Positions 32,771-62,600 of a DNA stretch of 64,000 nucleotides are shown in pieces; positions within the stretch are counted from its first letter, which is position 1, and each line of letters opens with the position of its first letter. The stretch comes from a phage: sequence record PQ478073.1; one strand, given 5' to 3'. The position numbers were made by a program, and so were the translations under genes. The notes below the pieces were generated by a model that worked only from the letters and a program-made list of their open reading frames with translations, ran no database searches and was not told the origin of the DNA.

Positions 32771-34735
32771 TTATCTAATTGTTACCAATGTTCTTCCGTC
32801 GAAACGTACATCAGGAGTTGAAGGTATACTAAACACTACGTTAGTGCCGTTAAACGTAACGCTATCGACCTCAACACGAGTATAGACACCAGGACTAACC
32901 TGTTCCTGTATCTCTGCTGTGACGATGTTTGAGGCTGTTACAGTAAGGGTGTAGTAGTTACCACTTAATACCCAAGATGAAATGGTAAAAGCATCGGTTC
33001 TCACTGAACCTGAACCAATCGGAACCCATTGACCTTGAACTTTTTGCATTGAAGTACGCTCGGTATTTGAGTATGCAATCATACCATCAACGCCAACAGA
33101 GTTATCAATAGTTGCTAGTACTGGTAATTGGATACCATATCTATTAAAACGTGTTCTTATAGTTCCATTATCATAGATACTTACATCAGCATAATTACCC
33201 ATTGATAGTTTTAAATCAGAACTAACTAATTGGATTGTACTTTGATTAGTAGTACTTTCTAATGTAATTATACCATTAGCTAATAGATTTATATTTTTAA
33301 ATTTATTAGTTGTTCCATTGAAATTAGTGTTTGCTGTAAACGTACTAACTCCATTAACTGTAATTGTATCTGATGCAGCATCGCCTAATATGGTATTACC
33401 TTGAATGTTCAAATTACCACTAGCAGTGATATTACTAGCTGATGTATCACCAGTCAATGTGCTTGTACCATCAACCACAATATTACCATGAAACGCACTT
33501 TCACCATTTTTAAATTCAACTTGTACTTTATTCATTGAACTAAATGAAATAATATTACTACTAGCACTTAGTCCAACATTAGTATTGGTTGCATTATCAA
33601 ATCTTAGTACTGGGGTTGATGCTGGGGTTGAGGTTGTTTGGTATAATGTTAATGTTGAATTATTAATTCTAATACGTTCAGTTCCCGCAGTACTGAAACC
33701 AATTGCATCATCTGCTGGATGAAACATACCAGTATTAGCGTCTGACCATTTTGCAGGATCATTACCTGGGTTATTGGTTGGATCAAATGGATTGTTATTA
33801 AATGTCAATGCTGGTGCTGCTGCACTACCATACACCACACCAAAACGCCCTGAGCCGCTTGTTCCATCATTATACATGGAATCACCAGTTCTACGTAAAC
33901 ATTCAATCACAACGTTATCTATGGATGTTTGTACGGTTCCTGCGTTCGTTCTAAATTGACGATGGTTTGCAATCATTACTGTATTGTCATATAATACAGA
34001 AGCAGCAGAAATGCTTGTTCTTGACTGGCGTAGACGTATGTTTTTATCTTCAGTTATAATGATCCAATCACCATCTGATAGTGCGGTTTGGTTCATTGGA
34101 ACGCCTGAAGCAAATGGTTTGGTTAAGTCAGCATCTGTTGCTAAATTTTTAAGACCATCATGACCAGTACTAGGTATGGAAGCAGTAATAATTCTAGCAA
34201 ATGCATAAGTGACAAGTTTTGCACCTGAAACATTTGGATTTGAATCAACATAATAAAGGATTTCAATCCAGTTTCCCTGACCAGTTGGGTTGGTTGGTGT
34301 AAATGTAACCGGACTTGTTTGTGGGTTATTTGCTTCAAAGTGTGCTTGTGCTGCATCCATAATACCACGAACAACATAATAATCACCATTAAGTGATGCT
34401 GAAGGTGCAGGGAGCGGTGTTTGTGCCAAAGGTGGATCGATGTCGTCAGGGATTGGATTATATGTACCTACGAACTGCAAACCACTTGTTACCGAATCTG
34501 GTAATTGTGAAGTAAGGAGTTTGCCATTGGCATCTAAGTTTGCAAAACGACGATATGCCATTGTACCATCTTCAAAATCCAAAACACCTTCAAATGATTT
34601 CCATTCTTTATTGTACCTAATCATCCCTGAACGTATTACATCAGCGGTTTCTTTAGATGGTGCTTTCGGTAACTCTAAAAAAGATTTACTATCTATGATA
34701 ACACCACCATCACCTCTAATTCGATTTATACTCAT
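32771..34735 (-). CDS. tail fibre / receptor-binding-type structural protein (654 aa)
   Basis: ORF track; GAGGAA SD; T/S/N/G-rich beta-rich composition; located in fibre gene block. Confidence 0.5.
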   Translation of the reverse strand: MSINRIRGDGGVIIDSKSFLELPKAPSKETADVIRSGMIRYNKEWKSFEGVLDFEDGTMAYRRFANLDANGKLLTSQLPDSVTSGLQFVGTYNPIPDDIDPPLAQTPLPAPSASLNGDYYVVRGIMDAAQAHFEANNPQTSPVTFTPTNPTGQGNWIEILYYVDSNPNVSGAKLVTYAFARIITASIPSTGHDGLKNLATDADLTKPFASGVPMNQTALSDGDWIIITEDKNIRLRQSRTSISAASVLYDNTVMIANHRQFRTNAGTVQTSIDNVVIECLRRTGDSMYNDGTSGSGRFGVVYGSAAAPALTFNNNPFDPTNNPGNDPAKWSDANTGMFHPADDAIGFSTAGTERIRINNSTLTLYQTTSTPASTPVLRFDNATNTNVGLSASSNIISFSSMNKVQVEFKNGESAFHGNIVVDGTSTLTGDTSASNITASGNLNIQGNTILGDAASDTITVNGVSTFTANTNFNGTTNKFKNINLLANGIITLESTTNQSTIQLVSSDLKLSMGNYADVSIYDNGTIRTRFNRYGIQLPVLATIDNSVGVDGMIAYSNTERTSMQKVQGQWVPIGSGSVRTDAFTISSWVLSGNYYTLTVTASNIVTAEIQEQVSPGVYTRVEVDSVTFNGTNVVFSIPSTPDVRFDGRTLVTIR

Positions 34736-34817
34736 TAAATATTTCCTCAGAATAGATTATATATGATGTATTTATTTTAGTTAAAAGAAAAGGCCAACCA
34801 TAGTTGACCTTATAATA

Positions 34818-35597
34818 TTAACGAGTACGTTCAGGAATTTCAATACCTTCATATACCCAAGTTGCAGCTTGTTGTGCTTTATAAATTGCATCAGGATCTA
34901 AATCATCAACTGCATCAATTGCAGCACACTGACGATCACATTCTGCAAACAACTGTTCTACCATAGCAAATGCTTCAGTATATAGTTGTGTCATTTCAGC
35001 AGCAGATAGTTTAACTATTGCATCATCGAGAAATATAGAGACAGTTTCAGCACCAGAAGTTACTTGAGTATAATAGTTAAGTAACATTTGACGACCAGCT
35101 AGATCAGTACTATAACGTTGTCCTTTAAACAAATAACCACGATTAATACGTTCACCACGTTCTGCTACAGTTCTGGATTTTAAATCATATTTCACATCAG
35201 TAATATTCATATCAACGTAATGGTATGTTTTCAGTACTGTTAGTGCTTTATACTCTGATGTAGCTTCTTCAATAAATTCAACAACTGGTTGATTATCATC
35301 TTTTAACTTAATAAACTCCAATGGTTGTTCAATAGCATTAACATTGCCAATATTTTTATACACTAACCACCAAAAACCTTCTTCTTTTCTAACAGCATCA
35401 TTAGGTTCCACTGGAGAACCATCTTTACTTGAAATACCATAAAGAGTTCTAATATCACTATAAAGATAACGATAGGTTTGTGGATCTTCTGGTGTAGCAC
35501 CTGGACGTTCTTTCAATCCTTTTACACCAATTGGGTTAGAAATAATGCTACCCAATTCATAATTTTCTTTTGAATTTCCTTTCACATATGTGAACAT
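34818..35597 (-). CDS. hypothetical protein (259 aa), possibly fibre-associated
   Basis: ORF track; GAGGT SD; position between fibre genes. Confidence 0.5.
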   Translation of the reverse strand: MFTYVKGNSKENYELGSIISNPIGVKGLKERPGATPEDPQTYRYLYSDIRTLYGISSKDGSPVEPNDAVRKEEGFWWLVYKNIGNVNAIEQPLEFIKLKDDNQPVVEFIEEATSEYKALTVLKTYHYVDMNITDVKYDLKSRTVAERGERINRGYLFKGQRYSTDLAGRQMLLNYYTQVTSGAETVSIFLDDAIVKLSAAEMTQLYTEAFAMVEQLFAECDRQCAAIDAVDDLDPDAIYKAQQAATWVYEGIEIPERTR

Positions 35598-35660
35598 ATA
35601 ACTACCTCACTTGTTATGATGGTGTCACCCAAAAGAGTGACACCTTTATTATTATAATTA

Positions 35661-38600
35661 TTAAGCTGTACGTTGTGCAATAAACATATCTACAACTGGA
35701 CTTACACCATCATAAATGACTTGGTAAATGGTCACAGAGTTTGCAGTTTTGTTTAGAGTGCCATCAACAACCGCATAAGTACCATCAGTAGTAAAGTTTC
35801 TGTTACCAGTTGCATCTTGTTTCACATAAATGTATACTGAAGATGCTTTACCACCACCGATTAGACCAGTGATTGGTGCTAGAGTTGTATCTTGATCAAG
35901 GGTGATAAAGTATACGTTGCTAGTACCATCAGGAGTCCAAGTACCAGTTGGTGCAATAACAGAAGAAGTTACTTGATTAGGAATAACATCATATTTTTTA
36001 GTAGTTACAGTAGTAGTAGTTAAATCAGCATTAGTTGTTGTTAGTTGACCAGTAACTGTTACATTTTTGTCAAACACAGCATTTTCTTTGAAAGAAGATG
36101 TTGCATTAACAGTTAATGTATCAGCAGCAGCGTCACCTAGAACAACACTACCATTTGCAGTCATTAAACCAGTAACAGTTAAAGTACCACCTACGGTTGC
36201 TGCACCAGTTACAGATGCACTAGCAAGAGTAGCAGCACCAGAAGTAGTAATTGTAGTTACAGAAGTAGCAGCAAGGGTAGCAGTACCAGTTGCAGAAATA
36301 TCACCACCGACAGTTAGGTTACCAGAAGTAATACCAACAGTTCCTGTGATATTCGCACCACTTGACATAGTAACTGCACCACCGAATGAACCAGTAGTAG
36401 TTACTTCAAGAGTGTTACCTTTTAGTAAACCAGTTGCAGTAATGCTTGTTCCTGCGGTAATACTAGTACCAGCAGCAACACTGTTAGTTGCAGTTAAAGA
36501 TTTAACAGCCACATCAGAGTTAGCTTGGTTTAGCGTTGCGTTTAGAACACCAGTTACTGTAAAGTTACCATTGTTAACTACGTTACCATTGATGGTTAAG
36601 TTGTTGTTTTGTGAACCAACATCACCAATAGTTGCAGATTTAGAAATCAATTCTGCACCAGATGTGATATTACCTGCTGCACTAATAGTATCAGCAGCAA
36701 CAACAGCATATGGTTCGATAGTTTGACCACTAACATCGATATCAGCGTTGATACCACCGTCTACACGCAAGGAACCTGCGATGTAAGTGTTAGGGAAAAT
36801 CTGAACTGTTTCTGGTTGATCACCAATTTTTGTACCAATTACAACGTTCGCACCAGTTTTAACTGCACCAGATGTTGTTAGTGAACCTAAAGTTGCTTCA
36901 CCAACTACACCTAATGTACCACCTACGGTTGCGTTATTAGTAACTGCCAAAGCTGTTCCTTCACCGTTAAGGGTGATAGATGGAGCAGTCGCTGCACCAG
37001 TTACGCCTAATGTACCACCTACGGTTGCGTTGCCATCAGAATGTAGTGTAGTAGCTACAGAAAGACTGTTTGCAACTACATCAGTACTTGCAAGATCCAA
37101 TGCACCTGGTGTTAATGTACCAGTAATGTTAACATTATTACCAAAGGTTGCTGCACCAGTAACATCTAGAGTTGTACTAAATGTACCAGAAGTTGCAGAA
37201 ACAGCACCAGAATCTAGTGAACCTACAGTTGCTTTTCCAGTTACACCTAGTGTACCACCTACAGTTGCGTCGGTTGTTACACCTAATGTACCAGTACTAA
37301 CTTCTTGAGCGGTTGCTTTACCAGATGCAGTAATAGTTGAAGTAGATACTCCCCCAGTTAATGTGCTTGCACCAGTTACTGCTAAAGTTGTTGCTGCTGT
37401 TACGCTGTTCACGTTAAGGTCAGCACCAGCTAGGTTCAAACCACCTTCAGGAATAAATTCACCCTTCACTGTTAGTTTTTGTACTGTACTATCACCAGTG
37501 ACTGCCAGTGTAGATGCAGTTAAACCACCATTCATACTAGCTGCACCAGTTACACCGAGTGTAGTGGTTACAACAGCACTATTAAGAGTAGCAGTGTCGG
37601 AAATATTAGCACTTGGTGCAGCAATAGTCCCAGCATCAACTTGAATACCACCAGTAACAACTTGGATACCACCAGCATTAACAGTGAGTTTACCAGCAGT
37701 GTTTAAGGTATTTGATACAGTTGTAGCACCAGATAGTGTACTTGTACCAGTAACACTTAGATTACCAGAAATTATTGGGCTACCAGTTACATTACCAGTT
37801 GTTAGAATTAAATCAGTACCTACAGTTGTAGAACCAGTACTTTCTAATGTTACACCAACAATGTTAGAAGAACTTAGGTTAATTGAACCTGTTACAGTCA
37901 AGTCACCATTAACAGTTGCGTTACCTAGTGAATTTAATGATTTCACTGAAACATCAGTAGTGCTAAGGTCAATTACACCCGCAGTTAATGTACCAGATAC
38001 AGCCAAATCACCAGTGATTGCAGTGTTTTTAGTAATAGAAACACTTTCAGCAGCAGAAGTTAGAGAACCAACAGTCAAAGCACCGCCAACAGTGGCGTTA
38101 TTAGTAACGTTAAGTGCAGTACCAACACCAGATAGTGTTGCAGACGCACCATTAACAGCACCAGAGATATTTGCATTTGCAGCAGATACATCACCTGAAA
38201 CAACCGCAGTTGTTGCATTTACTGTAGTTGCAGTAATATCAGTACTTTGTACTTTTGGTAGTAGGTTAACACCTTCAGCACTACTAACAGTGATGATTCC
38301 AGCACTTGTTAGAGATTTTACTGATACATCAGCAGCAGATAGGTCTACAGTACCAGAAACAACAAGGTCACCACCAATATTTGCACCAGCAGTTGTTGTG
38401 ATTGATTTAGCATTAACATCAGTTGTTGTTAAATCAATAGCACCTGGTGTTACTGTACCAGAAACTGTTAGGTCACCAGTAATAGATGTATTATTAGCAA
38501 TAGATACACCCGCAGTATTACCAATGGTTGGAACTTCAATAGAAACTGCTGTAACTTTACCAGAAGATGTTACATCAGCAACAGAAGTTGCACCAGTTAC

Positions 38601-41186
38601 ATTCAAATTAGTAATATTCGCAGTAGTAGAACCTAGAGTTGCAATTGTCGCATCAGTACTTTGTAGTTTAGGTAGAACACTACTAATAGTTGATTCATTA
38701 CTAACGATTGCACCAGTACTGGTTAGAGATTTAACTGTTACATCAGCAGCAGTTAGGTCTACTGTACCGTTAACGGTTAAGTTTCCACCAATTGTTGCAC
38801 CAGCAGTTGTTGTGATTGATTTAGCGTTAACATCAGTTGATGCTAGGTCGATAGATCCAGGAATCACAGCACCACTAACAGTTAAGTCACCAGTGATAGA
38901 AGTATTATTACCAATTGTAACACCAGTTACATTGGAAATAGATGGAGTAACTAGAGATGCAGTTGTTGTTTCACCACTTACATTTAAAGTTGTTCCGACT
39001 ACAACATCAGCACTTGTACGAACAGATGCTAGATTAGATGGACCTGTTACCGCAAGTTCAGTTGCATTAACAGTATTAATTGTTGCAGTAGTACTATTAA
39101 GTACTGGTAAAACGTTGGCATTAACCAAATCATTACTTTTAACAATACCAGAAGTTGTTACAGATTTAACGTTAAGATCAGCGGCTGATAAATCAAATGA
39201 CCCTTGAACAACTAAATCACCACCAATTGTTGCACCAGCAGTTGTTGTAATAGAGTTTGCATTAATATCAGTAGTGCTTAGATCTAAAGAACCTACAGTC
39301 AAACTACCAGTAATATCAACGTTTTCAGTAAAGTTAGTATTTCCAGTAATAGTTGGAGCAGAAAGACTTGTAGCACTAATAGTTGTACCATTAATAGTTC
39401 CACCACTTAGTGTACCACTTGCAGTAATAGTTGGAGCACTTACTTCAGTGGAAGCAGTAATAGATGGTGCAGATACAGATGTTGTACCAGTAATAACACC
39501 AGCATTAATAGAACCAGCAGATAATGCACCAGATAGATTTGCAGTAGTACCTGCAATATCACCAGTAACGGTTAGTTTAGCACCTACGGTAGTATTTCCA
39601 GTACTTTCAAGAGTTGCACCTTTCACGTTTGCAGCAGCTACAACAGAGTTAGGAGTTAAGTTTTGACCACTAACATCAACAGTTAGGCCAGTAACAGTAC
39701 CAGTGAAATCAACATCATTAAGAATAGTTTTACCACCAACTTGTAGGAATGGTGTACCTGGGGCTTGTGTTTCATTACCAGTGATAGTTAGGTAATCTAG
39801 TTTGTTAAGACCGTTACCAGTAATACCATAGGTAGATAGTGAAGCATTACCAAAAGTTGCGGTTTTTAGAACATTCAATGTTGCAGGTGAAACAACTTCT
39901 GATTGAACTTCGTTAGGTAAAATAACAGTTGGGCGTTGGCCTGGTGCTGTATATCCAAATCCTAATTTAACTGCTGCATCTTGACTGTTTTGACCCAAGC
40001 TAATGGATTTGAAAGAAGCAGTACTATTAAAGCCAGTGATATTTGAACCTAAAGTTACTGCACCAGTTAGTGAAGATGTACCAGTAACATTCAATGAAAC
40101 TGCATTAATATCGTCAAGTTGGAATGTACCACCAAGTAGACCAGAAACGTTAATGTTATTAAAGTTTGCGGTTCCTGTACTTTCAATATTAGGAATAGTT
40201 GCTGTGCCAGTAACTTCAAAGTCAGCAACTTTGGTTTTACCCTTTTGAACTTCCAATAGTGGGGTGTCTGGGGATTGAGTATTGTTACCAGATACAGTTA
40301 GGTAATCTAGTTTGTTAAGACCATTACCTGTAATACCATAAGAAGAAAGAGAAGCGTTACCAAATGTTGCAGATGTCAAAACTGTTAAATTTGCAGGTGA
40401 CATTAATTCAGATTGAATTTCGTTTTGAAGAACTACAGTAGGACGTTTACCTGGAGCACTGTAAGGGAAGCTTAGTCTGAAGGTTTGAGATTCAGAGTTA
40501 GAACCAATACGAATATCTTTGAATGTAGCAGTACTGTTAATACCAGTTACGTTTGCACCAAAAGTTACTGCACCTTGTTGGTTAGATGCACCAGAAACGT
40601 TCAATGTTACTGCATTCAAATCTGATAGATTAAATTGTCCACCAAGTGTACCACTAATAGTTACATCGTTAAATGTAGCAGTACCAGTACTACTAATATT
40701 GGTTGTACTTACATTAGTAATTTCTGCGGTATTAGCAGTAATTTTATCAAATGCAGCAGTAGTACCAACATCAGCAGTAATATTACCTTTAAATGCTGTT
40801 GTTTCAGCAACTTCTAAGTTTTTAACTTTAGTTGCTTGTAGAGTGGTTGTACCAGCAGTTTGTGTAAAATCAGAACCAACTGATACAGTACCGTTAAAGG
40901 TAGCGTTTGAATTAATTGTTGCTGTATCAGACCCGACAACTGCACTACCGATTGTAGTATTACCCTCAACACCAAGACCACCAGAAAGTGTTGCTTTGCC
41001 ACCAACATCTAAAGTAGATGTAATGTTGGCAGTTGATGATTCAATGGCAGTAAAAGTTGCATTTGCAAAAGTTACAGTACCATTTACAGTTAGGTTATTA
41101 TTGAAAACAGCATTTCCTTTGACTAAAAGATCCTTACCAACCGTACCAGCACCAGTAATATCTAAGTCAGTTTTTATTGAGTACAT
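35661..41186 (-). CDS. giant repetitive tail fibre-like protein (1841 aa)
   Basis: ORF track; Thr/Gly/Ser/Ala/Val-rich with tandem repeats of about 170 and about 150 aa; SD ggaggg. Confidence 0.65.
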   Translation of the reverse strand: MYSIKTDLDITGAGTVGKDLLVKGNAVFNNNLTVNGTVTFANATFTAIESSTANITSTLDVGGKATLSGGLGVEGNTTIGSAVVGSDTATINSNATFNGTVSVGSDFTQTAGTTTLQATKVKNLEVAETTAFKGNITADVGTTAAFDKITANTAEITNVSTTNISSTGTATFNDVTISGTLGGQFNLSDLNAVTLNVSGASNQQGAVTFGANVTGINSTATFKDIRIGSNSESQTFRLSFPYSAPGKRPTVVLQNEIQSELMSPANLTVLTSATFGNASLSSYGITGNGLNKLDYLTVSGNNTQSPDTPLLEVQKGKTKVADFEVTGTATIPNIESTGTANFNNINVSGLLGGTFQLDDINAVSLNVTGTSSLTGAVTLGSNITGFNSTASFKSISLGQNSQDAAVKLGFGYTAPGQRPTVILPNEVQSEVVSPATLNVLKTATFGNASLSTYGITGNGLNKLDYLTITGNETQAPGTPFLQVGGKTILNDVDFTGTVTGLTVDVSGQNLTPNSVVAAANVKGATLESTGNTTVGAKLTVTGDIAGTTANLSGALSAGSINAGVITGTTSVSAPSITASTEVSAPTITASGTLSGGTINGTTISATSLSAPTITGNTNFTENVDITGSLTVGSLDLSTTDINANSITTTAGATIGGDLVVQGSFDLSAADLNVKSVTTSGIVKSNDLVNANVLPVLNSTTATINTVNATELAVTGPSNLASVRTSADVVVGTTLNVSGETTTASLVTPSISNVTGVTIGNNTSITGDLTVSGAVIPGSIDLASTDVNAKSITTTAGATIGGNLTVNGTVDLTAADVTVKSLTSTGAIVSNESTISSVLPKLQSTDATIATLGSTTANITNLNVTGATSVADVTSSGKVTAVSIEVPTIGNTAGVSIANNTSITGDLTVSGTVTPGAIDLTTTDVNAKSITTTAGANIGGDLVVSGTVDLSAADVSVKSLTSAGIITVSSAEGVNLLPKVQSTDITATTVNATTAVVSGDVSAANANISGAVNGASATLSGVGTALNVTNNATVGGALTVGSLTSAAESVSITKNTAITGDLAVSGTLTAGVIDLSTTDVSVKSLNSLGNATVNGDLTVTGSINLSSSNIVGVTLESTGSTTVGTDLILTTGNVTGSPIISGNLSVTGTSTLSGATTVSNTLNTAGKLTVNAGGIQVVTGGIQVDAGTIAAPSANISDTATLNSAVVTTTLGVTGAASMNGGLTASTLAVTGDSTVQKLTVKGEFIPEGGLNLAGADLNVNSVTAATTLAVTGASTLTGGVSTSTITASGKATAQEVSTGTLGVTTDATVGGTLGVTGKATVGSLDSGAVSATSGTFSTTLDVTGAATFGNNVNITGTLTPGALDLASTDVVANSLSVATTLHSDGNATVGGTLGVTGAATAPSITLNGEGTALAVTNNATVGGTLGVVGEATLGSLTTSGAVKTGANVVIGTKIGDQPETVQIFPNTYIAGSLRVDGGINADIDVSGQTIEPYAVVAADTISAAGNITSGAELISKSATIGDVGSQNNNLTINGNVVNNGNFTVTGVLNATLNQANSDVAVKSLTATNSVAAGTSITAGTSITATGLLKGNTLEVTTTGSFGGAVTMSSGANITGTVGITSGNLTVGGDISATGTATLAATSVTTITTSGAATLASASVTGAATVGGTLTVTGLMTANGSVVLGDAAADTLTVNATSSFKENAVFDKNVTVTGQLTTTNADLTTTTVTTKKYDVIPNQVTSSVIAPTGTWTPDGTSNVYFITLDQDTTLAPITGLIGGGKASSVYIYVKQDATGNRNFTTDGTYAVVDGTLNKTANSVTIYQVIYDGVSPVVDMFIAQRTA
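37850..39340 (-). repeat. intragenic tandem repeats, 3-4 units of about 0.42-0.45 kb
   Basis: Protein repeat IDL[AST]TTDVNAKSITTTAGA[TN]IGG[DN]L.V.GTVDL[ST]AADV.VKSLTS.G recurs; matching DNA strings near 38401 and 38815. Confidence 0.6.
39700..40700 (-). repeat. intragenic tandem duplication, 2 units of about 512 nt
   Basis: gttaggtaatctagtttgttaagacc at 39785 and 40297; encodes two 170-aa repeats (TATFNDVTISG... and TANFNNINVSG...). Confidence 0.65.
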
Positions 41187-41282
41187 TTATACCCTCCATT
41201 ATAACCTTGTTAATATGTATATATTTAGTTTTATTATGCTGTTATCCAACAATTAATACATTATTTGACAAAAGCAAATATA

Positions 41283-41320
41283 ATAAAAAAACCAGACTTA
41301 TTTAGAACAAAGTCTGGTTA
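41283..41320 (-). terminator. rho-independent terminator
   Basis: aaccagact / 12-nt loop / agtctggtt hairpin with U-run on the minus strand (A-run 41284-41290). Confidence 0.65.
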
Positions 41321-41325
41321 ATTTT

Positions 41326-42222
41326 TTACTTACCGGAGATAACAATCTTACCACTGAAAGAAATATCAGAAGTGAAGATTACATCACCAGTACTACTAAT
41401 TTGTGTATCAGTCACTACCAACTCGAATGGAGATGACGCAACACTCCCAGGTGTTTTATTTGCATAAATTGAAATATACAAATTATCTGGGGTTTGATTG
41501 TGTTCGGATGCTGGAATAGTGATTGTGAAATCACCAGCACTAGAAACCCAATCTGCTTGGTTTACTAATTTACTATAAGGTACTGTCATTGTGGTTGCTC
41601 CTATAATGTTTACTTTAACACTTGCATAATCTGTGATTTGACCAATCACATCAATTGTTATATCCCCAATACCACTAACTGTTACTGTGGTTTGGAATAC
41701 TGATTCCAATGCAACATTACCTGGGTCACCTTGTAGTTGAATCATAATATCAGAACCTCTACCATGAACTGATTCTGGTAGTGTGTAAGTATAATGATCA
41801 GTAGTATCTGGTACTAATGTAAATGCAGAAACAGGAACTATTTCAGTAGTTACATATGAGCTATCAGTTCCAGGTGAGCTACCTTTAAATGGTTTCCAAA
41901 TACCAAGATCTTTAATATAAATTTGAAGAACATTAGTACTATCAACCAAAAAGTAAACGTCACCATCTAGACCAATAGAATCGGATGGTGCTGTTGTTCC
42001 ACGTAAGATACCAGAACTACCACCACCACTGTGTGCGTTTAAATATCCCAATGTAACCAAGTGTGTGTTTGCAGTTGGTTCACCTGCTGAAATTGGAAGA
42101 AGTTGTGTTCCTGAGTAGTTTTGAATTTGCACAACACTACCATTTGTGGTAATCTGTGCACCATTCTTCCCAAGAATGAAGGACTTCTTCATGGTTCCTT
42201 CTAAATTAGAAAAAACTGCCAT
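41326..42222 (-). CDS. tail fibre/spike protein with conserved N-terminal anchor (298 aa)
   Basis: AAGGAG SD; N-terminus MAVFSNLEGTMKKSFILGKNG shared with 42239..44380. Confidence 0.55.
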   Translation of the reverse strand: MAVFSNLEGTMKKSFILGKNGAQITTNGSVVQIQNYSGTQLLPISAGEPTANTHLVTLGYLNAHSGGGSSGILRGTTAPSDSIGLDGDVYFLVDSTNVLQIYIKDLGIWKPFKGSSPGTDSSYVTTEIVPVSAFTLVPDTTDHYTYTLPESVHGRGSDIMIQLQGDPGNVALESVFQTTVTVSGIGDITIDVIGQITDYASVKVNIIGATTMTVPYSKLVNQADWVSSAGDFTITIPASEHNQTPDNLYISIYANKTPGSVASSPFELVVTDTQISSTGDVIFTSDISFSGKIVISGK

Positions 42223-42238
42223 TTTAATATAATCTCCT

Positions 42239-44380
42239 TTATGGTAGGGTTATGTAAGTTACGGGTTGGGCGGCTTTTAATGCTGCACCAGCGGCAGTTG
42301 CTGTTATGATAGGATCTGCAATATCAATTCTATATACGTTGTTTACAACATACACTGCACGAGTTATATACGTTCTCAAATCACCACCATTTTCACCAGC
42401 ACCAGATATAATAATCTCAGTACCAGCAGCTTTTGCATATTGGTTTTCACCCCATGACACACCCAATGCTTCTATATATGTTTGTCCTACTACGGTTTGT
42501 CTAATAGTGTCGTATTTTCCGAAAAAAGAACCACCAACGGTCACAATATATTTTCCACCAGATTGCTTATGTATAATAGTACCTTCTGGGAAATAACGAC
42601 CACCCGGAAAAGTGTCGTAGGGAATATAATATTGTTCAACTACTGGTATCAGTACTGGGCCACGGTGACCTGTACCATCGATTGCAGTTGTAACTTTAAA
42701 GTTATTAGATGATTGGTCTATTCTGTCTACATACATTTTAGAAAAACTATATTTTGAAACATTACAATCATCTTGAACAACACAGTTAGTCCAATTAGTA
42801 TAAGTATATTTAGAGCGAGTATAGATACCACCACCTTCGCCTTCTGTAGAGAGATGTTGACCAATTACATCTAATTCTTTAGTTCTAATATCACTAAATT
42901 TAGATGATGATGGCAAACCACGCCAAAGGATTTTAGAACAAGTGATATTGCTCAATTCTGTATTATTTAACCAATTATCAGAACCGGAAGTATAAACAAG
43001 TATAGAAGACTCAGGAATATAGAGATTAGAAATTTTAAAGTTTCTAGGTGGCCCAGCAAAACGACCAGAAGTTACACCCCAGTTTATTGAAACCATTCTA
43101 TTTGTGATAGAAGGATCATTAAGCAAATGACCAGTCAACCCATCAATAATGAATTCTTTAGAACCATAAGTTATAACACCAGCAGTGGTTAATCCAGTAC
43201 CGACAGAAACTAAAGATGATGGATAAACTTCATTATTAAGTATTTTAAAGTCCATGCCTAATTCAACGTGGATACATTGTCTAACATTATATAGTCTGTT
43301 ATTTTTAATAACAAAGTTTCTGACATATTGTGTATCTGGTGCATCTAAACCATAAGGACCAGAACCAGCAACACCAATACCAATACCCCAGTTTGAAAGT
43401 GGGATTGGAGCGTTAGAACCATCAACGTTTTCAATTATGTTCCCTTCAATAACAAAACCATCAGGATAGTGTGAGTTAATTACGTTTAGTTCAATTGCAT
43501 CACCATATATATCATGTATGTGGTTATATGAATATCTACCAACCTTCATTTTCTCACCAGTACCTTGTTGAAGAACACCATACTTACATTGGGTCATTTC
43601 ATTAAAGCAAAAATCTATTGTACCTGGTTGTGTCATGCCTTGCATTAAAAATGCAGCAGTACTTGTGATGTTTATAAATTTATTAAAATAAAACTTACCA
43701 TCGCCACCGAAGAATTTTAAATAACATCCAGTAAGTGTTGCAAATTGTATTTGGGAATTAATAACGGATACCATAGTACCACCGTTACCAGTAATAGTTC
43801 CCCCAAACCAAGTTACATCTTCCAGATATATTGCCGTTTTGATACGGTAATTACCACCAGCCTGAATTTGTATTTTATTTTCTTTAGCATACGCAGCACA
43901 TAAATTTACAGCAGCAGTGTCATCAGTTTCGCCATCACCTTTAGCACCAAATTCTTCTGGTGTTATATAAAACTGTGCCTGTTGAACTGTACCTCCAGTA
44001 ATAAGTCCGATGAAATCCCCACCATTTTTACTGGATAGAACTTTTTTATTAATGTATAATGATTTTACCCATGTACCATTGCTTTTTGCAAAAATATCAA
44101 CAATACCATCTTCATCAATTTGAAAATACGTATTATTGTTCTTTCCTATATCATCGGTAGGTGGTACAACACCAAATAATGCATTAGGGTTATCTTCAAG
44201 ATATTTTACGTTAACTGCTGAATTAGGATCAGATGAAGTTCCTACCTTCAGTGGTAGGAACTGTTCTCCTAGATAATCTTTTATAGAAACTGAATCATTG
44301 ATAAAATTTATTGAAGCACCTTTTTTCCCCAATATGAATTTGGGCTGCATAGTTCCTTCAAAATTAGAAAATACTGCCAT
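42239..44380 (-). CDS. tail spike protein, putative beta-helix (possible depolymerase), shared N-terminal anchor (713 aa)
   Basis: GGGAGGA SD; N-terminus MAVFSNFEGTMQPKFILGKKG; central region with repeated short beta-strand/Gly-Asn turns typical of right-handed beta-helix. Confidence 0.5.
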   Translation of the reverse strand: MAVFSNFEGTMQPKFILGKKGASINFINDSVSIKDYLGEQFLPLKVGTSSDPNSAVNVKYLEDNPNALFGVVPPTDDIGKNNNTYFQIDEDGIVDIFAKSNGTWVKSLYINKKVLSSKNGGDFIGLITGGTVQQAQFYITPEEFGAKGDGETDDTAAVNLCAAYAKENKIQIQAGGNYRIKTAIYLEDVTWFGGTITGNGGTMVSVINSQIQFATLTGCYLKFFGGDGKFYFNKFINITSTAAFLMQGMTQPGTIDFCFNEMTQCKYGVLQQGTGEKMKVGRYSYNHIHDIYGDAIELNVINSHYPDGFVIEGNIIENVDGSNAPIPLSNWGIGIGVAGSGPYGLDAPDTQYVRNFVIKNNRLYNVRQCIHVELGMDFKILNNEVYPSSLVSVGTGLTTAGVITYGSKEFIIDGLTGHLLNDPSITNRMVSINWGVTSGRFAGPPRNFKISNLYIPESSILVYTSGSDNWLNNTELSNITCSKILWRGLPSSSKFSDIRTKELDVIGQHLSTEGEGGGIYTRSKYTYTNWTNCVVQDDCNVSKYSFSKMYVDRIDQSSNNFKVTTAIDGTGHRGPVLIPVVEQYYIPYDTFPGGRYFPEGTIIHKQSGGKYIVTVGGSFFGKYDTIRQTVVGQTYIEALGVSWGENQYAKAAGTEIIISGAGENGGDLRTYITRAVYVVNNVYRIDIADPIITATAAGAALKAAQPVTYITLP

Positions 44381-44394: not shown

Positions 44395-45510
44395 TTAAAT
44401 ATTATCTTGAATCGGTTGGATAGGAGCTTGCCATGAAAGAGTACAAATAATTTCCATTTTTCCATAAGGACTGTTGTTAACAGAATCGTTGAATACACAT
44501 GAAATAATTTCATCAACATCGGATGCTGCATGATTAGTTTCATTAACAATAAAACGCATCTGACGATTGATATCAAAGTAGGAAGTTGGTGCAATTACAG
44601 TCCCACCAATATCTTCTTGTGCTTCACCACCAAAACGTACAAACATATCAGTTACAGGAAGAGAATAAGGTTGTATAACGTTTACATCAATATTAGAAAC
44701 TACATATCCAGCAGGACACGTACCAATAACTAATAGTGCGTTAGTCCATGAGCTATCTATAGTATTTCTAATAGAAATTGTATCTTTACCTGGTGCACCT
44801 GGTTCGCCTTGTATACCTTGAATACCTTGCTGACCTTCTTTACCACGGAATAGAATACCATCACTCCACTCTTTTGAAGGAGGGGTAGTTGTAGTTACTT
44901 CATCAACATAATATAGTTTTCCATCAGTGTTGTTATAAAAACAATAATCAACTGGAAGATTTTCAATACTTGGAAATTGATCACCACTGCTATCAATATG
45001 GAAACGACCACGCGGACCTTGTTCACCACGGAAAGGGATACCATCACTCCAAGTGGCAGTTACACTTTGATAGAAATAAATCTTACCATCTTGAGTATTA
45101 TAAAATGTATAGTTATTAAAAAGACCAGTTGTTGGGAAAGTAGTTCCAGCACTATCAATGTGGAACGGCTTACCCGCTTCACCCGTATCACCTTTACCAA
45201 ACTCAACACTAATCCATGTACTTGTCGGATCTTGTGCATCATTTGATTTAAAGTATAGAGTACTGGTATTGTTAGCCAAGCTTAAGTAGCACCACCCAAG
45301 TGGTTCACCAACTTTAAATTGTTCGGAAGGAATTTCAAAACCAATCTCATTAGGATAAAAGTTTTTACCATTCTCGCCATTCTGTCCTACAACAAGACCT
45401 AAATCTTGAATTGTGTTATCTGCATAGGTTACAATTAAATGCCCAGCACCATTAATAACTAGACTTTTGATGCCGGAGTTATTACATGAACCATTAAATG
45501 AAATTGTCAT
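44395..45510 (-). CDS. tail fibre-like protein with collagen-like G-X-Y triplets (about 371 aa)
   Basis: ORF track frame; start placed at ATG 45510 (AAGGGA SD); GEQGPRG, GKEGQQGIQGIQGEPGAPGKD; internal repeated FHIDS.G..FP motif. Confidence 0.5.
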   Translation of the reverse strand: MTISFNGSCNNSGIKSLVINGAGHLIVTYADNTIQDLGLVVGQNGENGKNFYPNEIGFEIPSEQFKVGEPLGWCYLSLANNTSTLYFKSNDAQDPTSTWISVEFGKGDTGEAGKPFHIDSAGTTFPTTGLFNNYTFYNTQDGKIYFYQSVTATWSDGIPFRGEQGPRGRFHIDSSGDQFPSIENLPVDYCFYNNTDGKLYYVDEVTTTTPPSKEWSDGILFRGKEGQQGIQGIQGEPGAPGKDTISIRNTIDSSWTNALLVIGTCPAGYVVSNIDVNVIQPYSLPVTDMFVRFGGEAQEDIGGTVIAPTSYFDINRQMRFIVNETNHAASDVDEIISCVFNDSVNNSPYGKMEIICTLSWQAPIQPIQDNI

Positions 45511-45620
45511 AATATTTCCCTTGTATGAGTTAATGTCATATACCAATATTTATCAGTACAAAATACATTTCGTTATCATTAATAAATAAATGAAAGTTCA
45601 CTACTAAAAGGGCTTAAACA

Positions 45621-53628: not shown

Positions 53629-56600
53629 TTATTTAACTAATAATATATTTTTAATATCATTACCACTAACTTGTAGACTATCAGTGTATACTGAAAGATC
53701 TATAGTGTAACTATTTTGTGTGTAACGTTTTAACATATCATAATTACCTAAATTAATTCCATTGAATGAATATGTAGTATTAAGTTTAAAATCATGTTCT
53801 GCACTATACATTACTCCACGGAGTAAATTATTTGCATTTCTAACTTCAACTTTTTCATATCCAATCGATATAATATCATTTATGTTCGCGGCAGAACCGG
53901 ATAAAACATTATTTCTAATACTATAAGGACTTATTGATTTAGGTTGAGAAACATAGGTTGTATTTTCTTCACTAATGGTTGTGATGTTAGTAACCGTACC
54001 ACCAACAACACCGATGTACATACCGTCAACCATTGGATAACCATAAACCCATATACCTTCATTATTTCTAAACGGTTGAATAACACTTGAATCATATTCA
54101 ATAACGTTGATTTCTAAACTATCAGTCATTTTAGTTCTTGCTAATTCACTAAGAACTCCCGCACCAGTAATTGGTAGGTTATAACCGTTGTCGATAGTAA
54201 TTCCATCAACATCAAATATTTCGTTAGAGATTATCCAAACGTCAACGTCATCTGGTGTTATTCCGTCATTGTACTTACCACCATTTAAAGTAGTATCGTA
54301 GAAAACATCATAATTAATTACATCAATTGTGTAATTTCTATTTTGTTCGTACAATTTGATACCATTCTTCACAAATTCTGGGTCAGCAAATGTTCTAACA
54401 CGAACAATGTTCAATGCAAGAGGCTGTACTGGCTCATTTTGTTGTGCAAGAGTGATATTATCATAACGGAGAACTGCACCAGTACTCTCATCAATCAATT
54501 CAATCGTTTCTTTACCTGTATTTCTTACAGTGAATAGGATCGGAGTTGTATTGTTTTTGATGTTAGATACACGCAAGATTGTTTCCCATGTGTGATTTTG
54601 ATATCTCACAAAATCTTCACCATCAGGAGTGAAAATCATCACCTTATCACCATCAGATAGGTCATTGTCAACTATTTCTGCTTCAGTTAAGCTATTAATA
54701 GATCTCACACGATAGAAATATTTTTCATCAAACTTCGATGTTGTTTTATTAATATCATTTTCAATCTTAGCATATGAAGGAATACTAACAATTGCTTCTG
54801 TATGTTTATATGGATTGATAATTGCCATACCTTCAGTTTGATATCTGCTGTTATCACGTAATTGTACAAGAGATACATTGTCAAACCCATATCCATCAAC
54901 TGTAAATCTAATTTGACCAACATCACGCCCAGAAGGGTTTATGTCAGATATATCCACAATATAAGGATCAACTTCATCATCTTTAACTTCCCATTTTATT
55001 GAAGAAGTTTGAGATTCTAATGCTAGGTTATCAAATGCATTCATATCATTGAAGTACTTAGCTTCAGTAATACTATCAAGTATATATTGATAATCTGAAT
55101 ACATTGGGTTATTTTGATCTAGTGGTAAATCATCTAGATTTATTTCAGCTAGTTCAATCATTTCACCATTTGTGATAAAATAATCTTCCATGAAATCATC
55201 AATACTTTGTTCATCAGGTATACTTTGATATACACCGTTAACATTTAAGTAAACATATTTTCGTGGAATCATTGTAATTGCATAGATATCAATTGGGGTT
55301 TTACTAAGAATCTCTTCAGCTTTTTCGTACTTATCAGTAGCGTCTTTGTCGAATAACCCTCTCATACCTGCTAATACGTGAATAGCATCAGTATAGAAAC
55401 GGGTATCACCACCGACTTCATCATAACGATAAACATATACACCATACTCAACTTCAAGTTTAACTTTTACTTCATAGTCTGATGCGTCAGGATTTTTATC
55501 TTTAATTAATGAAATATATTTTTGATACAGTTCACTGCTTATTTCAAAATATCCATAGTTATAATCATTACTAGAAGAAAAGCCTAATGGAAGTCTAGTA
55601 CTAGGATTGTCATTATAAGTAAGTCCACTAAATCCACAACCAACTTCATCGTGAATTTTCTCATCACTTATATCTTTATAAAGTTTCAAACGGTTTGCCA
55701 ATGTGTTATACTGAACATATTGTCTAAGGTCAGTAAACATATCGTTCTGCGTTGATTCTTTATAAACACGCTCCAATGTAGCAGTAAATTCATCAGTTGC
55801 TTCTAAATCTTCCGCATGGTCTTTATACCACTGGTTAACACCATATGCTGTTCCTAATGTTACATCCAATTCTGGATAGTAGATTTGCATTTGATAAGCA
55901 ATAAGAAGATCGAAAGTTTCTTCACTATATTCTGGGAAAGAATATATATAACGTTGTAATTCATAGTTACTAACAGCATCCTTTTCATTGGATTGATATT
56001 TGTTATTAACACTTACTAATTCATTTATGCTTGCTAAATCTGCATTTGGTTTACATTGAATGTTATCGTAATGCATAATAATATCAATTTCTTGGAATCT
56101 TCTATTTGGTGTAATGAAATCACTTGGTAGTGAACCTACCTGTTCCCATTTTTGGGTAATTTCATTAAATTGAGCGTACTCATAATCCCAAATATCTTTT
56201 TCAGTTTTGACCCAAGAACCGTCAACGAAAATATATCCATTAGGATCTAAATCATTACACAGACCTTTTATTAAATCATCATCAGATGTCTTTTGCTCTA
56301 TTTGTGAACGAATTTTAGTTCTATAAGGTTTAACTTCTTCAAAATATTCAACAATTTGATTAATCAAATTATCGTTTGAATAGTTTTGAACTAATGATTG
56401 TTCCAAACCAACAATATAGATATATGATGTTTTAAATACCCAATCCACAACACTTTGTTCAACATGTACATATTTGACCATATCAAAAACAATTTCGCTT
56501 TGATGTAAATCGAAAGAATTTTTGAGTAAAGCTAGTGCTTTACGAACGTTGATTTCACGATTGCTTAGTGAACCATTATCATTATGAACACTATAATCTG

Positions 56601-59600: not shown

Positions 59601-62600
59601 ATTCACCAGTTACTAGAGAATTCTGACTCCAGATCACGAAATCTTTAGCAATAGTGTTCCAATCTTGTTGAGCACCACTATCATTTACATCTTCAAAAAT
59701 CCAACCATGTTCTTTAAGATATTCACCATATCCACAAATAAAAGTATAAACTTCTTGGTAACTATTGAAAACTTTACCATATTCAATTGAAGCTTCAGAC
59801 TTCCATTCATTATAATGAACAACATTACGGTTTTCCAATTTAAGAGTTACTTTTCTACCATTTTTTACGGGAAGTTTATATTTAAATTTAGCACCAACTA
59901 GATCATATCCATCAATCTGATATGCACTACCATTCCAAGTAATTTTGATCGCACTCATTTGCTCATCACGGATATTATTAGAACGAACAAGACCAATGGT
60001 TTGGTTTTCTTGTGAAATAAGACCGAAAGATTTAGCATTGAATGTTAGCTGATCTGCTTTAGTAAATCCTCCAATTTTATGACCAACATTTATATAAGAA
60101 GAACGAACTACATCCCCATACTTGGTGGTAATATTTTTATTTTGATACATCAAATGGTCACTTACAAACATTTGATAACCAATTGTTCTTGTGCTATTTT
60201 CACCATGAACTACTGTATTTTTATCAAAATTAATACGCTTACGTGTATCACCATAAAGGAATTGTGAACCATCAGTGAATACTTCTTTTAAGTTATCATT
60301 GCGGGTATCCCAGAAATAGTTAGCAAATTGTGCTGGTTTAGCTTTATACAAAAGCATCATTTGGTCATATGCAAACAATGTAGTGTTCATGTATGTAAAT
60401 TCCATGTCACCCATATCACCATATGTCCAAGGTTCTGCTCTATGATTTAAAGATCCAGACACTAAACCTAAAATTTCAGGTGCAATATATTCAACCACAC
60501 AAATATCAATACCAGAAGATGTTTTATTTCCAGTTTTTGTAATTTTGAATGGCTGTACACCAAATCTTTTATATTTGTCATATTGACCACGACGATCACC
60601 AAATAAAATAGTTCCAGTACTGCTATCGCCAATACTTCCGTCAATATCCCAAAGACCACTAGGAACTAAATCACCTTGCTCATTCATAACAAGTGCTTCA
60701 TATACATATACAACATCACTATCACGTTCACCAACTTGAACAGCCGTTGGTTCGTATTCTTGGTTCCACCAAGTTGGACGTTGTGTAAAGCCAAACATTT
60801 CCCACGGATGGGTAGCTGGGCGATATGTACCATATTGGTCAGTGTAAATGGCACGCCATGAACCACGTGCAGGAATTTCAGTACTTTGACCATTAACTAC
60901 ATAATAAGTGCCAGTATAGTTCCAAGTTCTCCAATTGTTAGGATCATAATCATGTGTACTATTACTGATACCATTAGTTGCGGTGAAGTTAATGTATCCA
61001 CGTAGTAATAATGTTTGTTTCTCTTCAGCACTATATTCAGTTTTAGTGAAATATGGTGTAGGGAAAAGGTCATCACTATTCAATACTGGTACGTAATCAA
61101 CATCTTTGAATTTATTATCAATACTATTAAAAATTCTATTTTCTAATTCATATACAACATCATCCATTTTATCAACACCATTGATAACACGGTATGCTTT
61201 GGAAATAATACCAGTATGACTGATGTTATAACAGCTTGGTTTACTACCAGCAGTGAGGAATGTCGCTTTTTCTGGTACATATGCTTGAAGAATACCTAAG
61301 AACTGTGGTGTTGGTGGTATAAATGCACGAATGAATCCAGAAGTACTTCCAACATTATCATAATAGAATGGGAATGAACTATCACGTCCCATATTAATAG
61401 TAGTTAAAATTGCATCAACAATGTTTGCAGCACTATTTTGTAAAAAGTCTGATGGATTTTCATCATACATACGAAGCATTTGTGTATTAAATTTATTAAT
61501 GAATCTAAAATATTCAGATTGCATAAACATAGTTGCTTCAAATAAATCAATATCTTCATTTGCAGTATGTGCCATCAATGGAAGCATAGATGCTTCATTT
61601 TGGATAATTTTAGTACCTACGCCATTATTAACCAATCCTTTAGCCAAACGTTCTTCATAGTCATTGAAATCATCAGAAGAACCACGTGTAATGTTCTTTT
61701 GAATAATATCCTGAAAATGTAAAGTGTAGTCACCTTGGTTAATGTATATAATATTAGAATTATATGGGTTATTTTGTAGGTTGATTGGAACTTCATAAGC
61801 ACCTAATTCTTTATCAGGTGTTACAGTACTGCTATAAGTTCTGATTTGAATAACAGAATCTTCATCCAATTCTACAGTACTATCTAGAGTGATGCTTTGT
61901 ACTTGACCTTTTGAAACATTTTTGGTATATTTGGACACATCAACACCATCAACCACAACTTCAATAATATCAGAATCATTATCTAAAACTTTTTGTGCCA
62001 ATTCGAATGTATGGTCATATTTTACAATCTGAACACCATCACCAGTAATTGGATGCCAATCTAGATAAGTTTCTCGGTCAGCTTTATAGTACTGATATGT
62101 TCTATCAACTTCAATAACATATGCATACATACCATCAACTGGTTCTTTAAAAACTTCCATATCATAAACAGTACTGAATACACGATACATATCAGTACGT
62201 TTGACTTGTGGAGTTTGTTTTACAAATTGTTTAGAGTACTCTTCTGAACGAACCCAATCGGTTTGAAGATTCATTTCATTATTTTCATCAATAATGTTAT
62301 AATAGTATAAACCATCAATTTCAACTTCTTTTCCAAGATGGTCATAGGTATAACGTTGGGATTGTAAAAAGTTTTCATAAATGTAATAATTATAATCACC
62401 AAGTTCAATGTTATATCCATATACACTATCAGTTGCATAGTTGTAATTTATTTTAAAACCAAACAACTCTGAACCTTTAAAGTTACTTGATGGATATGTA
62501 GTACTGTTGTCAAGTTTGATACCATTACGATCATAAAGTTGGAATTTAGGGAATACGTTAACACTAGTTTTTGATTGTGCACGAACCCACAAAGAACCAT

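What the first reader, a model, noticed from the sequence alone, without database searches (positions are those of the whole stretch)
41326..44380. Two receptor-binding-type proteins sharing one N-terminal anchor module
Adjacent minus-strand genes begin with near-identical N-termini (MAVFSN[LF]EGTM...FILGK[NK]G...) but diverge completely afterwards; the larger (713 aa) has beta-helix-like composition typical of tailspike depolymerases. Shared anchor with swapped distal domains is the classic signature of modular, multi-receptor tail spikes and of host-range evolution by domain exchange.
Basis: partly seen in the sequence, partly recalled or inferred. Interest (0 to 1): 0.5.

Follow-up and report, generated by a model that had tools for sequence, protein, structure and literature searches.

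The report
Colanidase tailspike sharing a phage adaptor
Two neighbouring genes of a PBECO4/121Q-type jumbo E. coli phage share a ~105-residue N-terminal attachment module; one carries an already-annotated enzyme that probably degrades the colanic acid slime layer, and the other is a small conserved virion protein, so this is an ordinary, tidy example of modular phage tail proteins.

Summary
ORFs 41326-42222(-) (A, 298 aa) and 42239-44380(-) (B, 713 aa) share an N-terminal module: 39% identity over 109 aa (E=7e-20), with only the first ~22 residues near-identical. The window is an Asteriusvirus (about 98% identical to PBECO4/121Q/slurp01).

B residues 96-712 match the crystal structure of phi92 gp150 colanidase (E=1e-236), and GenBank already annotates the gene as colanic-acid-degrading. 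B is a chimera of a jumbo-phage N-module and a phi92-type colanidase body, with the junction at residues ~96-107. It occurs only in the E. coli clade.

A is not a swapped-domain receptor binder. All 73 homologues are full-length (284-309 aa) across phages of many host genera. Its C-terminus is predicted as two beta-sandwich domains, and its CBB ortholog is in virions. RaK2/K64-1 keep only the 115-aa module.

The module has two parts. S1 (~65 aa) is strictly N-terminal and has no Pfam or PDB match; elsewhere it is fused to beta-helix depolymerases and sialidase-like propellers. S2 (~45 aa) is a widespread repeat weakly resembling collagen XV/XVIII trimerization domains.

So "shared adaptor plus exchangeable body" is supported for B and for S1 in general, but not for A. 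New member of a known kind; modest interest.

The parts
42239..44380 (-). Gene B, 713 aa: colanidase tailspike (ortholog of 121Q gp573, 'colanic acid-degrading protein'; the PBECO4 copy is 99.4% identical)
   Evidence: ORF; PHROG 6117 E=5e-264; 99.4% identical proteins in PBECO4, UB, G17 and others; annotation in 121Q.
44189..44380 (-). B residues 1-64: S1 sub-module (N-terminal adaptor domain; the first ~22 aa are nearly invariant)
   Evidence: S1 HMM E=1.1e-25; alignments; S1 is strictly N-terminal in 26 of the 150 listed cluster representatives.
44066..44188 (-). B residues 65-105: S2 sub-module (one copy of a widespread ~45-aa beta-hairpin repeat; putative trimerization unit)
42239..44065 (-). 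B residues 106-713 plus stop: phi92 gp150-type colanidase body (neck plus right-handed beta-helix plus C-terminal domain)
   Evidence: phmmer against PDB hits 6e0v/6e0w 'Bacteriophage Phi92 gp150' at E=1.1e-236, query 96-712. 58% identity to the PaulScherrer bas60_0035 protein starting at B96 aligned to residue 189. Pfam Pect-lyase_RHGA_epim and End_N_terminal hits are below cut-off.
41326..42222 (-). Gene A, 298 aa: conserved small virion protein (ortholog of 121Q gp572, GAP32_221, CBB_227)
   Evidence: ORF; PHROG 10468 E=5.5e-100; 73 full-length homologues; CBB_227 detected in virions with 5 peptides and 32% coverage.
42025..42222 (-). A residues 1-66: S1 sub-module
   Evidence: S1 HMM E=1.6e-31. 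Mean identity across the family is 66%, the most conserved part of the protein.
41887..42024 (-). A residues 67-112: S2 sub-module, preceded by a Gly/Ser linker
   Evidence: S2 HMM E=5e-27. AF2 strands at 73-75, 89-93, 98-105 and 108-111, with pLDDT about 90.
41326..41886 (-). A residues 113-298 plus stop: two predicted beta-sandwich (Ig-like) domains, about 122-208 and 216-297
44395..45510 (-). Upstream gene in the same cluster: 371-aa 'tail protein' (121Q gp574) with a short collagen-like Gly-X-Y stretch; candidate neighbour or partner in the virion
   Evidence: PHROG 13565 'tail protein' E=2.7e-220, matching from residue 13 of the 383-aa ORF. 121Q annotates 1116 nt. The orthologs CBB_228 and phAPEC6 gp253 are abundant in virion MS.
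35661..41186 (-). Downstream gene in the same cluster: 1841-aa long tail fibre (121Q gp571)
   Evidence: PHROG 4549 'tail fiber protein' E=1.5e-223. phAPEC6 gp256 (180 kDa) is in virions. The only strong terminator-like site is at 35621-35644, after this gene.

Best explanation
B is a colanic-acid-degrading tailspike of a PBECO4/121Q-type jumbo myovirus, assembled from two evolutionary pieces.

The body (residues ~106-713) is the phi92 gp150-type colanidase: a neck, a right-handed beta-helix and a C-terminal domain. It most likely works as a trimer that hydrolyses the colanic acid layer of E. coli, so the phage can reach the cell surface.

The first ~105 residues are an attachment module specific to the RaK2-like jumbo phages. 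It consists of S1 (~65 aa, with an almost invariant first 22 residues) and S2 (~45 aa, a beta-hairpin unit that probably helps trimerize the chain). S1 most likely docks the protein onto a conserved site on the tail or baseplate periphery.

The same module heads protein A, an older and conserved small virion protein whose body is two beta-sandwich domains. In the E. coli-infecting clade a colanidase body was joined to a copy of this module and inserted between the 'tail protein' gene and gene A. This gave the phage an extra capsule-stripping activity without a new attachment site having to evolve.

Shown: the homologies, the domain boundaries, the distribution, and the virion presence of an A ortholog. 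Inferred: the docking role of S1, the trimerization role of S2, the enzyme activity, and the virion location of B.
For: B body: PDB 6e0v/6e0w (phi92 gp150) at E=1.1e-236 over residues 96-712; 58% identity to a phi92-like homologue; PHROG 6117. gp150 is reported to hydrolyse the beta-1,4 Glc-Fuc bond of colanic acid (PMC13450770, citing Xu et al. 2025).

Chimera: the phi92-like protein has an unrelated 188-aa N-terminus, and homology begins at B96, whereas the A/B similarity ends at about B104.

Distribution: the module occurs in 72 RaK2-like jumbo phage records. About 36 E. coli-clade records have two copies and all others have one. GAP32, CBB, RaK2 and K64-1 lack a gene between the 'tail protein' gene and the A ortholog.

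Genome-wide HMM scan of 121Q plus the window: only gp572 and gp573 carry S1/S2.

S1 as an adaptor: it is always at residue 1 of proteins with unrelated bodies, namely a beta-helix with Peptidase_S74, another beta-helix, and BNR/sialidase-like propellers with CBM5/12. These lie in phage fibre-gene clusters. S1 is the most conserved part of A, and its first 22 aa are nearly invariant across paralogues and genera.

Virion: CBB_227 was detected by MS. The cluster is tightly packed with flanking virion proteins and shows no convincing internal terminator in the inter-gene gaps.
Against: There is no direct evidence that B is in the virion. The phAPEC6 proteome lists the flanking gp253 and gp256 but neither gp254 nor gp255, although those two CDS are also missing from the deposited record.

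No docking partner has been identified. S1 has no structural or sequence match to any known anchor domain, and only monomer models could be made.

Enzyme activity is inferred from 58% identity and was not tested. The catalytic residues of gp150 were not available to check.

The B gene is split, truncated or internally deleted in several relatives, so it may be dispensable.
Confidence: 0.62

Rival explanations
1. One reading: both A and B are receptor-binding proteins on a common anchor, and the locus is a hot spot where distal domains are exchanged to change host range.
Against: A's whole length is conserved at 38-80% in the C-terminal part across phages of many host genera, the opposite of a host-range determinant. 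RaK2/K64-1 dispense with A's body entirely. Every two-copy genome has the same colanidase at the B position. A's fold prediction is not fibre- or spike-like.
Confidence: 0.2
2. A is a purely structural connector, for example a small baseplate-periphery or fibre-socket protein for the adjacent 1841-aa long tail fibre. The module's primary role is in virion architecture, and B merely borrowed it.
For: A always lies immediately upstream of the long-fibre gene or its replacement. It is conserved across genera. The module alone suffices in RaK2, whose fibre apparatus is different. CBB_227 is in virions.
Against: No interaction data exist. RaK2 lacks the long fibre homologue yet keeps the module, so the module's partner is not that fibre. 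This explanation overlaps with, rather than excludes, the best explanation for B.
Confidence: 0.35
3. B is a soluble enzyme released at lysis and is not a virion spike. The shared N-terminal module would then be a folding or oligomerization unit rather than an anchor.
For: gp254 and gp255 are absent from the phAPEC6 virion proteome while both neighbours are present. S2 resembles a trimerization unit. PHROG files B's family under 'moron, auxiliary metabolic gene and host takeover'. B is disrupted in several isolates.
Against: The two CDS are missing from the phAPEC6 record, so they may not have been in the MS search database. The A ortholog with the same module is virion-bound in CBB. B lies in a tightly packed cluster of virion genes. 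Its phi92 homologue is regarded as a tailspike or fibre candidate. S1 occurs only at the N-termini of fibre- or spike-like proteins within fibre-gene clusters.
Confidence: 0.15
4. The N-terminal similarity is a recent tandem duplication or gene conversion with no functional meaning.
For: The genes are adjacent, and the first 33 nt are 30/33 identical.
Against: Overall module identity is only 39% at protein level, with no DNA similarity beyond about 60 nt. B's S1 is as close to the S1 of tailspikes in an unrelated contig (47%) as to A's (44%). The invariant N-terminal peptide is conserved across all genera, including single-copy genomes where conversion is impossible.
Confidence: 0.03

Closest known systems
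Bacteriophage phi92 gp150 colanidase tailspike (PDB 6e0v/6e0w) and its homologues in phi92/rV5-like phages (e.g. PaulScherrer bas60_0035)
   Same: B residues 96-712 align end to end with the solved structure (E=1.1e-236) and share 58% identity with a phi92-like homologue. A colanic acid hydrolase beta-helix body is therefore expected.
   Different: The N-terminal attachment region is unrelated: 188 aa in the phi92-like protein against the 105-aa S1+S2 module here. The host virion is a 350-kb jumbo myovirus rather than a ~150-kb phage.
Branched tailspike systems with conserved N-terminal anchor or adaptor domains (CBA120 TSP1-4, G7C, KP32 RBP1/RBP2, RaK2 gp526-534)
   Same: The logic is the same: a conserved N-terminal particle-binding part and an exchangeable enzymatic body, as summarised in PMC10253068. 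The nearly invariant 22-residue N-terminal peptide is reminiscent of the conserved docking peptide described for KP32-type RBP2 (PMC13352976 abstract).
PHROG 10468 'virion structural protein' (GAP32_221, CBB_227, 121Q gp572, RaK2 ORF061)
   Same: A is a full-length member (E=5.5e-100). Synteny is conserved.
   Different: No function has been assigned to this family. The RaK2/K64-1 members are truncated to the 115-aa module.
E. coli WcaM (colanic acid biosynthesis cluster protein; TIGR04004)
   Same: Local similarity over B residues 262-459, E=5e-26. This is the probable source of the 'colanic acid biosynthesis protein' annotations in several phage records.
   Different: The score is 91 bits against a cut-off of 795, so B is not a WcaM equivalog.
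Collagen XV/XVIII non-collagenous trimerization domain

Membership tests
phi92 gp150-type colanidase tailspike (PHROG 6117) | Sequence homology across the whole catalytic body to the solved gp150 structure | tested here: met
   phmmer E=1.1e-236, query 96-712 against chain 11-623 of 626; PHROG 6117 E=5e-264, 90-711.
phi92 gp150-type colanidase tailspike (PHROG 6117) | Right-handed parallel beta-helix fold | tested here: inconclusive
   Inferred from 58% identity to a close relative of the crystallised protein. Pfam beta-helix-type hits are below the gathering score (23.4 against 27 bits). B itself was not modelled.
phi92 gp150-type colanidase tailspike (PHROG 6117) | Hydrolysis of colanic acid | not testable with these tools
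   Activity is reported for gp150 only (PMC13450770, citing Xu et al. 2025). Kim et al. 2015 (AEM) is cited for the PBECO4 gene but could not be read.
phi92 gp150-type colanidase tailspike (PHROG 6117) | Attachment to the virion as a tail spike | not testable with these tools
   Not listed in the phAPEC6 virion MS, and the CDS is missing from that record. No other proteome covering B was found.
PHROG 10468 virion structural protein (protein A) | Full-length homology and conserved synteny between the 'tail protein' gene and the long fibre gene | tested here: met
   E=5.5e-100; 73 full-length homologues; synteny in 121Q, GAP32 and CBB.
PHROG 10468 virion structural protein (protein A) | Presence in purified virions | tested here: inconclusive
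   The ortholog CBB_227 was detected (5 peptides, 32% coverage). phAPEC6 gp255 is not listed.
   The C-terminal region is homologous in all 73 relatives, at 38-80% identity across host genera.
   S1 sits at residue 1 of beta-helix/Peptidase_S74, beta-helix and BNR-propeller proteins. Two different S1-spikes occur in one contig.
CBA120/T4 gp10-like (XD) branched tailspike anchors | T4 gp10-like XD domains or a TSP4-type triple beta-helix anchor at the N-terminus | tested here: not met
WcaM (TIGR04004) | Score above the curated equivalog cut-off | tested here: not met
   91.3 bits against a cut-off of 794.6.

The most novel reading that the evidence does not exclude
S1 would be a previously undescribed, portable 'plug' domain that fits one conserved socket on the tails of RaK2-like and related uncultured large phages.

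In Asteriusviruses, A and B would then compete for, or alternate on, the same socket, so virions would be mosaics carrying either a colanidase or an Ig-like head at each position.

In RaK2/K64-1 the socket would be capped by a bodiless 115-aa plug. If this holds, any enzymatic body could be grafted onto S1+S2 to retarget these jumbo phages.
Probability: 0.15. Interest if true: 0.5.

Novelty: new member of a known kind. Interest (0 to 1): 0.3.

Why it matters
It identifies which ~105 residues attach a capsule-degrading enzyme to a therapeutically studied group of jumbo coliphages. It also shows that the first ~65 residues form an unannotated domain family (no Pfam, NCBIfam or PDB hit) that is reused with depolymerase and sialidase-like bodies in uncultured phages. 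That gives a concrete boundary (B residues ~96-107) for engineering or swapping spikes. It corrects the recurring 'colanic acid biosynthesis protein' annotation. It also warns that the neighbouring 298-aa protein should not be assumed to be a host-range determinant. The underlying principle, a conserved N-terminal anchor with an exchangeable body, is textbook, so the conceptual gain is small.

Tried and rejected
1. Similarity between S2 and the internal repeats of the upstream 371-aa tail protein: not significant (E=0.022, and on a different segment).

2. Extra, more divergent S1/S2 copies in the window, in the rest of the 121Q genome or in the RaK2 gp525-534 fibre cluster: none found with HMMs. 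The RaK2 gp528 '105-aa anchor' is therefore not this module.

3. The RaK2 115-aa form as a split gene: there is no trace of A's C-terminal domains nearby or in the fibre cluster.

5. PDB profile search with the module: no hit even at E<=10.

6. The word-indexed homologue search with the module profile returned only 7 truncated forms. The exhaustive HMMER search was needed.

7. Promoter and terminator scans inside the cluster: fewer promoter-like sites than in shuffled sequence, and no convincing terminator in the gaps between the genes.

8. Literature: no paper was found that notes the shared N-terminus. Kim et al. 2015 could not be read. From memory, its enzyme may come from phage NST1 rather than PBECO4, so I do not rely on it.

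9. Recent duplication or gene conversion: rejected on the divergence pattern.
Full report
**What is there**

The window belongs to an Asteriusvirus, a ~350-kb jumbo myovirus of E. coli. The 5-kb stretch around the finding is 98.0-98.5% identical to vB_Eco_slurp01, PBECO4, 121Q, phAPEC6 and others.

In 121Q they correspond to gp572 ('structural protein') and gp573 ('colanic acid-degrading protein').

They sit in a tightly packed minus-strand cluster:
- a 371-aa tail protein (44395-45510);
- B, after a 14-nt gap;
- A, after a 16-nt gap;
- the 1841-aa long tail fibre (35661-41186), after a 139-nt gap.

No convincing terminator lies in the gaps between the genes. A strong bidirectional terminator-like hairpin occurs only after the fibre gene.

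**Checking the observation**

The N-terminal similarity is genuine. BLASTP gives 39% identity over 109 residues with E=7e-20. These are the only two copies in the window by tblastn and by profile HMMs.

'Near-identical' is true only for the first ~22 residues. DNA similarity disappears after about 60 nt. Beyond residue ~105-110 the proteins are unrelated.

**Protein B**

Residues 96-712 align end to end with the crystallised phi92 gp150 (PDB 6e0v/6e0w) at E=1.1e-236. They share 58% identity with the phi92-like PaulScherrer protein bas60_0035. PHROG 6117 'colanic acid degradation' matches at E=5e-264.

gp150 is reported to hydrolyse the beta-1,4 Glc-Fuc linkage of colanic acid (PMC13450770, citing Xu et al. 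2025).

The phi92-like protein has its own unrelated 188-aa N-terminus, and homology to B starts at B96 (aligned to residue 189). The similarity between A and B stops at about B104. B is therefore a clean chimera with a junction at residues ~96-107.

A sub-threshold match to host WcaM (91 bits against a cut-off of 795) explains why several records call the gene a 'colanic acid biosynthesis protein'.

**Protein A**

A belongs to PHROG 10468 (E=5.5e-100). All 73 homologues found are 284-309 aa and cover 100% of A.

Mean identity to A across a 32-sequence sample:
- 66% for residues 1-65;
- 63% for residues 66-112;
- 44% for residues 113-208;
- 51% for residues 209-298.

The body is therefore conserved, not swapped. 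The named homologues come from phages or genome records of Escherichia, Cronobacter, Yersinia, Erwinia and Salmonella, and tblastn places the N-module in jumbo phages of Klebsiella, Serratia, Pectobacterium and Xanthomonas as well.

The CBB ortholog CBB_227 was detected in purified virions with 5 unique peptides and 32% coverage (PMC5259590).

In RaK2 and K64-1 the ortholog is only 115 aa, which is the module alone. There is no remnant of the body nearby.

**Distribution**

Using either paralogue's module as a tblastn query finds the same 72 phage records, all of them RaK2-like jumbo phages, with 108 places in total. The roughly 36 E. coli-clade records have two copies and every other genus has one.

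GAP32, CBB, RaK2 and K64-1 have no gene between the 'tail protein' gene and the A ortholog. The colanidase gene is therefore an insertion specific to the E. coli clade.

I fetched the rest of the 121Q genome and scanned all ORFs with S1 and S2 HMMs. Only gp572 and gp573 scored. The RaK2 gp525-534 fibre cluster did not score.

**Anatomy of the module**

An exhaustive HMMER search of 1.84 billion representatives with a module profile gave 285 hits at E<=0.001, and they resolve the module into two parts.

S1 (profile positions 1 to ~70):
- It is found only at the very N-terminus of its targets; 26 of the 150 listed hits carry it.
- The target proteins range from 113 to 1366 aa.
- Bodies attached to it elsewhere include a pectate-lyase-like beta-helix with a Peptidase_S74 intramolecular chaperone (P0095), a right-handed beta-helix (P0101), and BNR/sialidase-like propellers, one with a CBM5/12 (P0110, P0120, P0131, P0145).
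- P0095 and P0101 lie 6 kb apart in the fibre-gene cluster of one 120-kb phage contig. Its layout after nrdD/nrdG mirrors 121Q gp499-501.
- P0145 heads a cluster of giant fibre-like genes in another contig.
- S1 has no Pfam, NCBIfam or PDB sequence match and no structural match.
- Its first ~22 residues are almost invariant across both paralogues and all genera.
- Its C-terminal 'P....DA.T..Y.D'-like motif also recurs inside other fibre proteins.

S2 (profile positions ~65-112):
- It is a short repeat present in up to 14 copies in many large proteins, frequently alongside collagen-like repeats.
- These scores are weak, so a trimerization role is an inference.

**How it most likely works**

B is most likely a trimeric colanidase spike held on the tail or baseplate periphery through S1, with S2 helping to trimerize the neck. 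It would strip colanic acid so the phage can reach its receptors.

A uses the same adaptor and is an older, conserved small virion protein whose two beta-sandwich domains may bind something conserved or may be purely architectural. The bodiless RaK2 form argues that the module itself has a structural role.

B's S1 is no closer to A's (44%) than to the S1 of the tailspikes in the uncultured contig (47%). This comes from a short alignment and an unsupported tree, but it suggests that B's module is not a recent copy of A's.

**Weak points**

Virion presence of B has not been shown. The phAPEC6 proteome lists gp253 and gp256 but not gp254 or gp255. Those two CDS are also absent from the deposited record, even though the DNA is 98% identical.

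B is split, truncated or internally deleted in several relatives.

No docking partner is known, and multimer modelling was not available.

**Comparison and novelty**

The B gene and its likely activity are already annotated. The principle of a conserved N-terminal anchor with an exchangeable body is well established for CBA120, G7C, KP32 and RaK2 fibres (PMC10253068).

Three things appear not to have been described, in the papers I could search:
- gp572 and gp573 share this module;
- the module consists of an unannotated strictly N-terminal domain plus one copy of a widespread repeat;
- S1 is reused with other enzymatic bodies in uncultured phages.

This is a new member of a known kind, of modest interest.

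Noticed in passing
window 44395-45546 (-): The mechanical 383-aa ORF starts at TTG. The PHROG alignment begins at residue 13, and 121Q annotates 371 aa, so the real start is probably the ATG at 45510. The protein has a short collagen-like Gly-X-Y run (about aa 235-253) and two internal ~55-aa repeats ('F.IDS.G..FP....Y.FYN..DGK.Y....W.DGI.FRG').
   Followed up: partly
L005 (phAPEC6 MK817115.1) 7188-10393: The deposited phAPEC6 record has no CDS for gp254 and gp255 (the numbering jumps from gp253 to gp256), although the DNA is 98% identical to the window. This may explain their absence from the published virion proteome.
   Followed up: partly
L007 (vB_Ec-M-J) 3941-6083; P0079 (JNE01, 141 aa); P0077 (201 aa); SD-6_S16 and SD-1_S14: The colanidase gene is split into two CDS, truncated, or carries a large in-frame internal deletion (N-module joined directly to the last ~45 residues) in several relatives. 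This reflects either sequencing errors or dispensability in culture.
   Followed up: no
one search hits H66-H69 (MG065639 and others): Four 146-kb records labelled 'Campylobacter phage' (host C. jejuni) carry a 57.5%-identical colanidase homologue, with the same match as phi92-like coliphages. The host labels look doubtful.
   Followed up: no
annotations (slurp01, Sharanji, BF17, fEgEco12, UE-S1, CRJP21): B is annotated as 'colanic acid biosynthesis protein' in several records and as 'MutT/NUDIX hydrolase family protein' in CRJP21. The former probably stems from a sub-threshold WcaM match, and the latter looks like a shifted annotation.
   Followed up: partly
window 53629-63630 (-): A giant 3333-aa ORF (121Q gp582, 'hypothetical protein'). 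By position it matches phAPEC6 gp245 (382 kDa), which was detected in virions.
   Followed up: no
window 36067-41256 (+), e.g. 37684-39207 (507 aa) and 40519-41256 (245 aa): Long antisense ORFs run opposite the 1841-aa fibre gene. They are almost certainly artefacts of its repetitive Thr/Ser/Gly/Ala/Val-rich coding sequence.
   Followed up: no
L010 (Logan SRR18476386_53) 7619-20688; L017 (121Q) 33287-41993: An uncultured 120-kb contig has nrdD-nrdG followed by an S1-tailspike, 902/199/919-aa PHROG 3573 proteins, and a second S1-tailspike. 121Q has nrdD-nrdG followed by 898/195/886-aa genes of similar sizes but without the spikes. This suggests a second fibre locus where S1-spikes come and go in related jumbo phages.
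   Followed up: partly
L018 (Logan SRR31175869_973) 214-13894: The C-terminal third of S1 (the 'P....DA.TK.YVD' motif) recurs internally in neighbouring fibre-like proteins: S1 HMM positions 42-68 match at residues 49-72 and 462-485 of a 587-aa protein, and at 405-428 of P0145.
   Followed up: no
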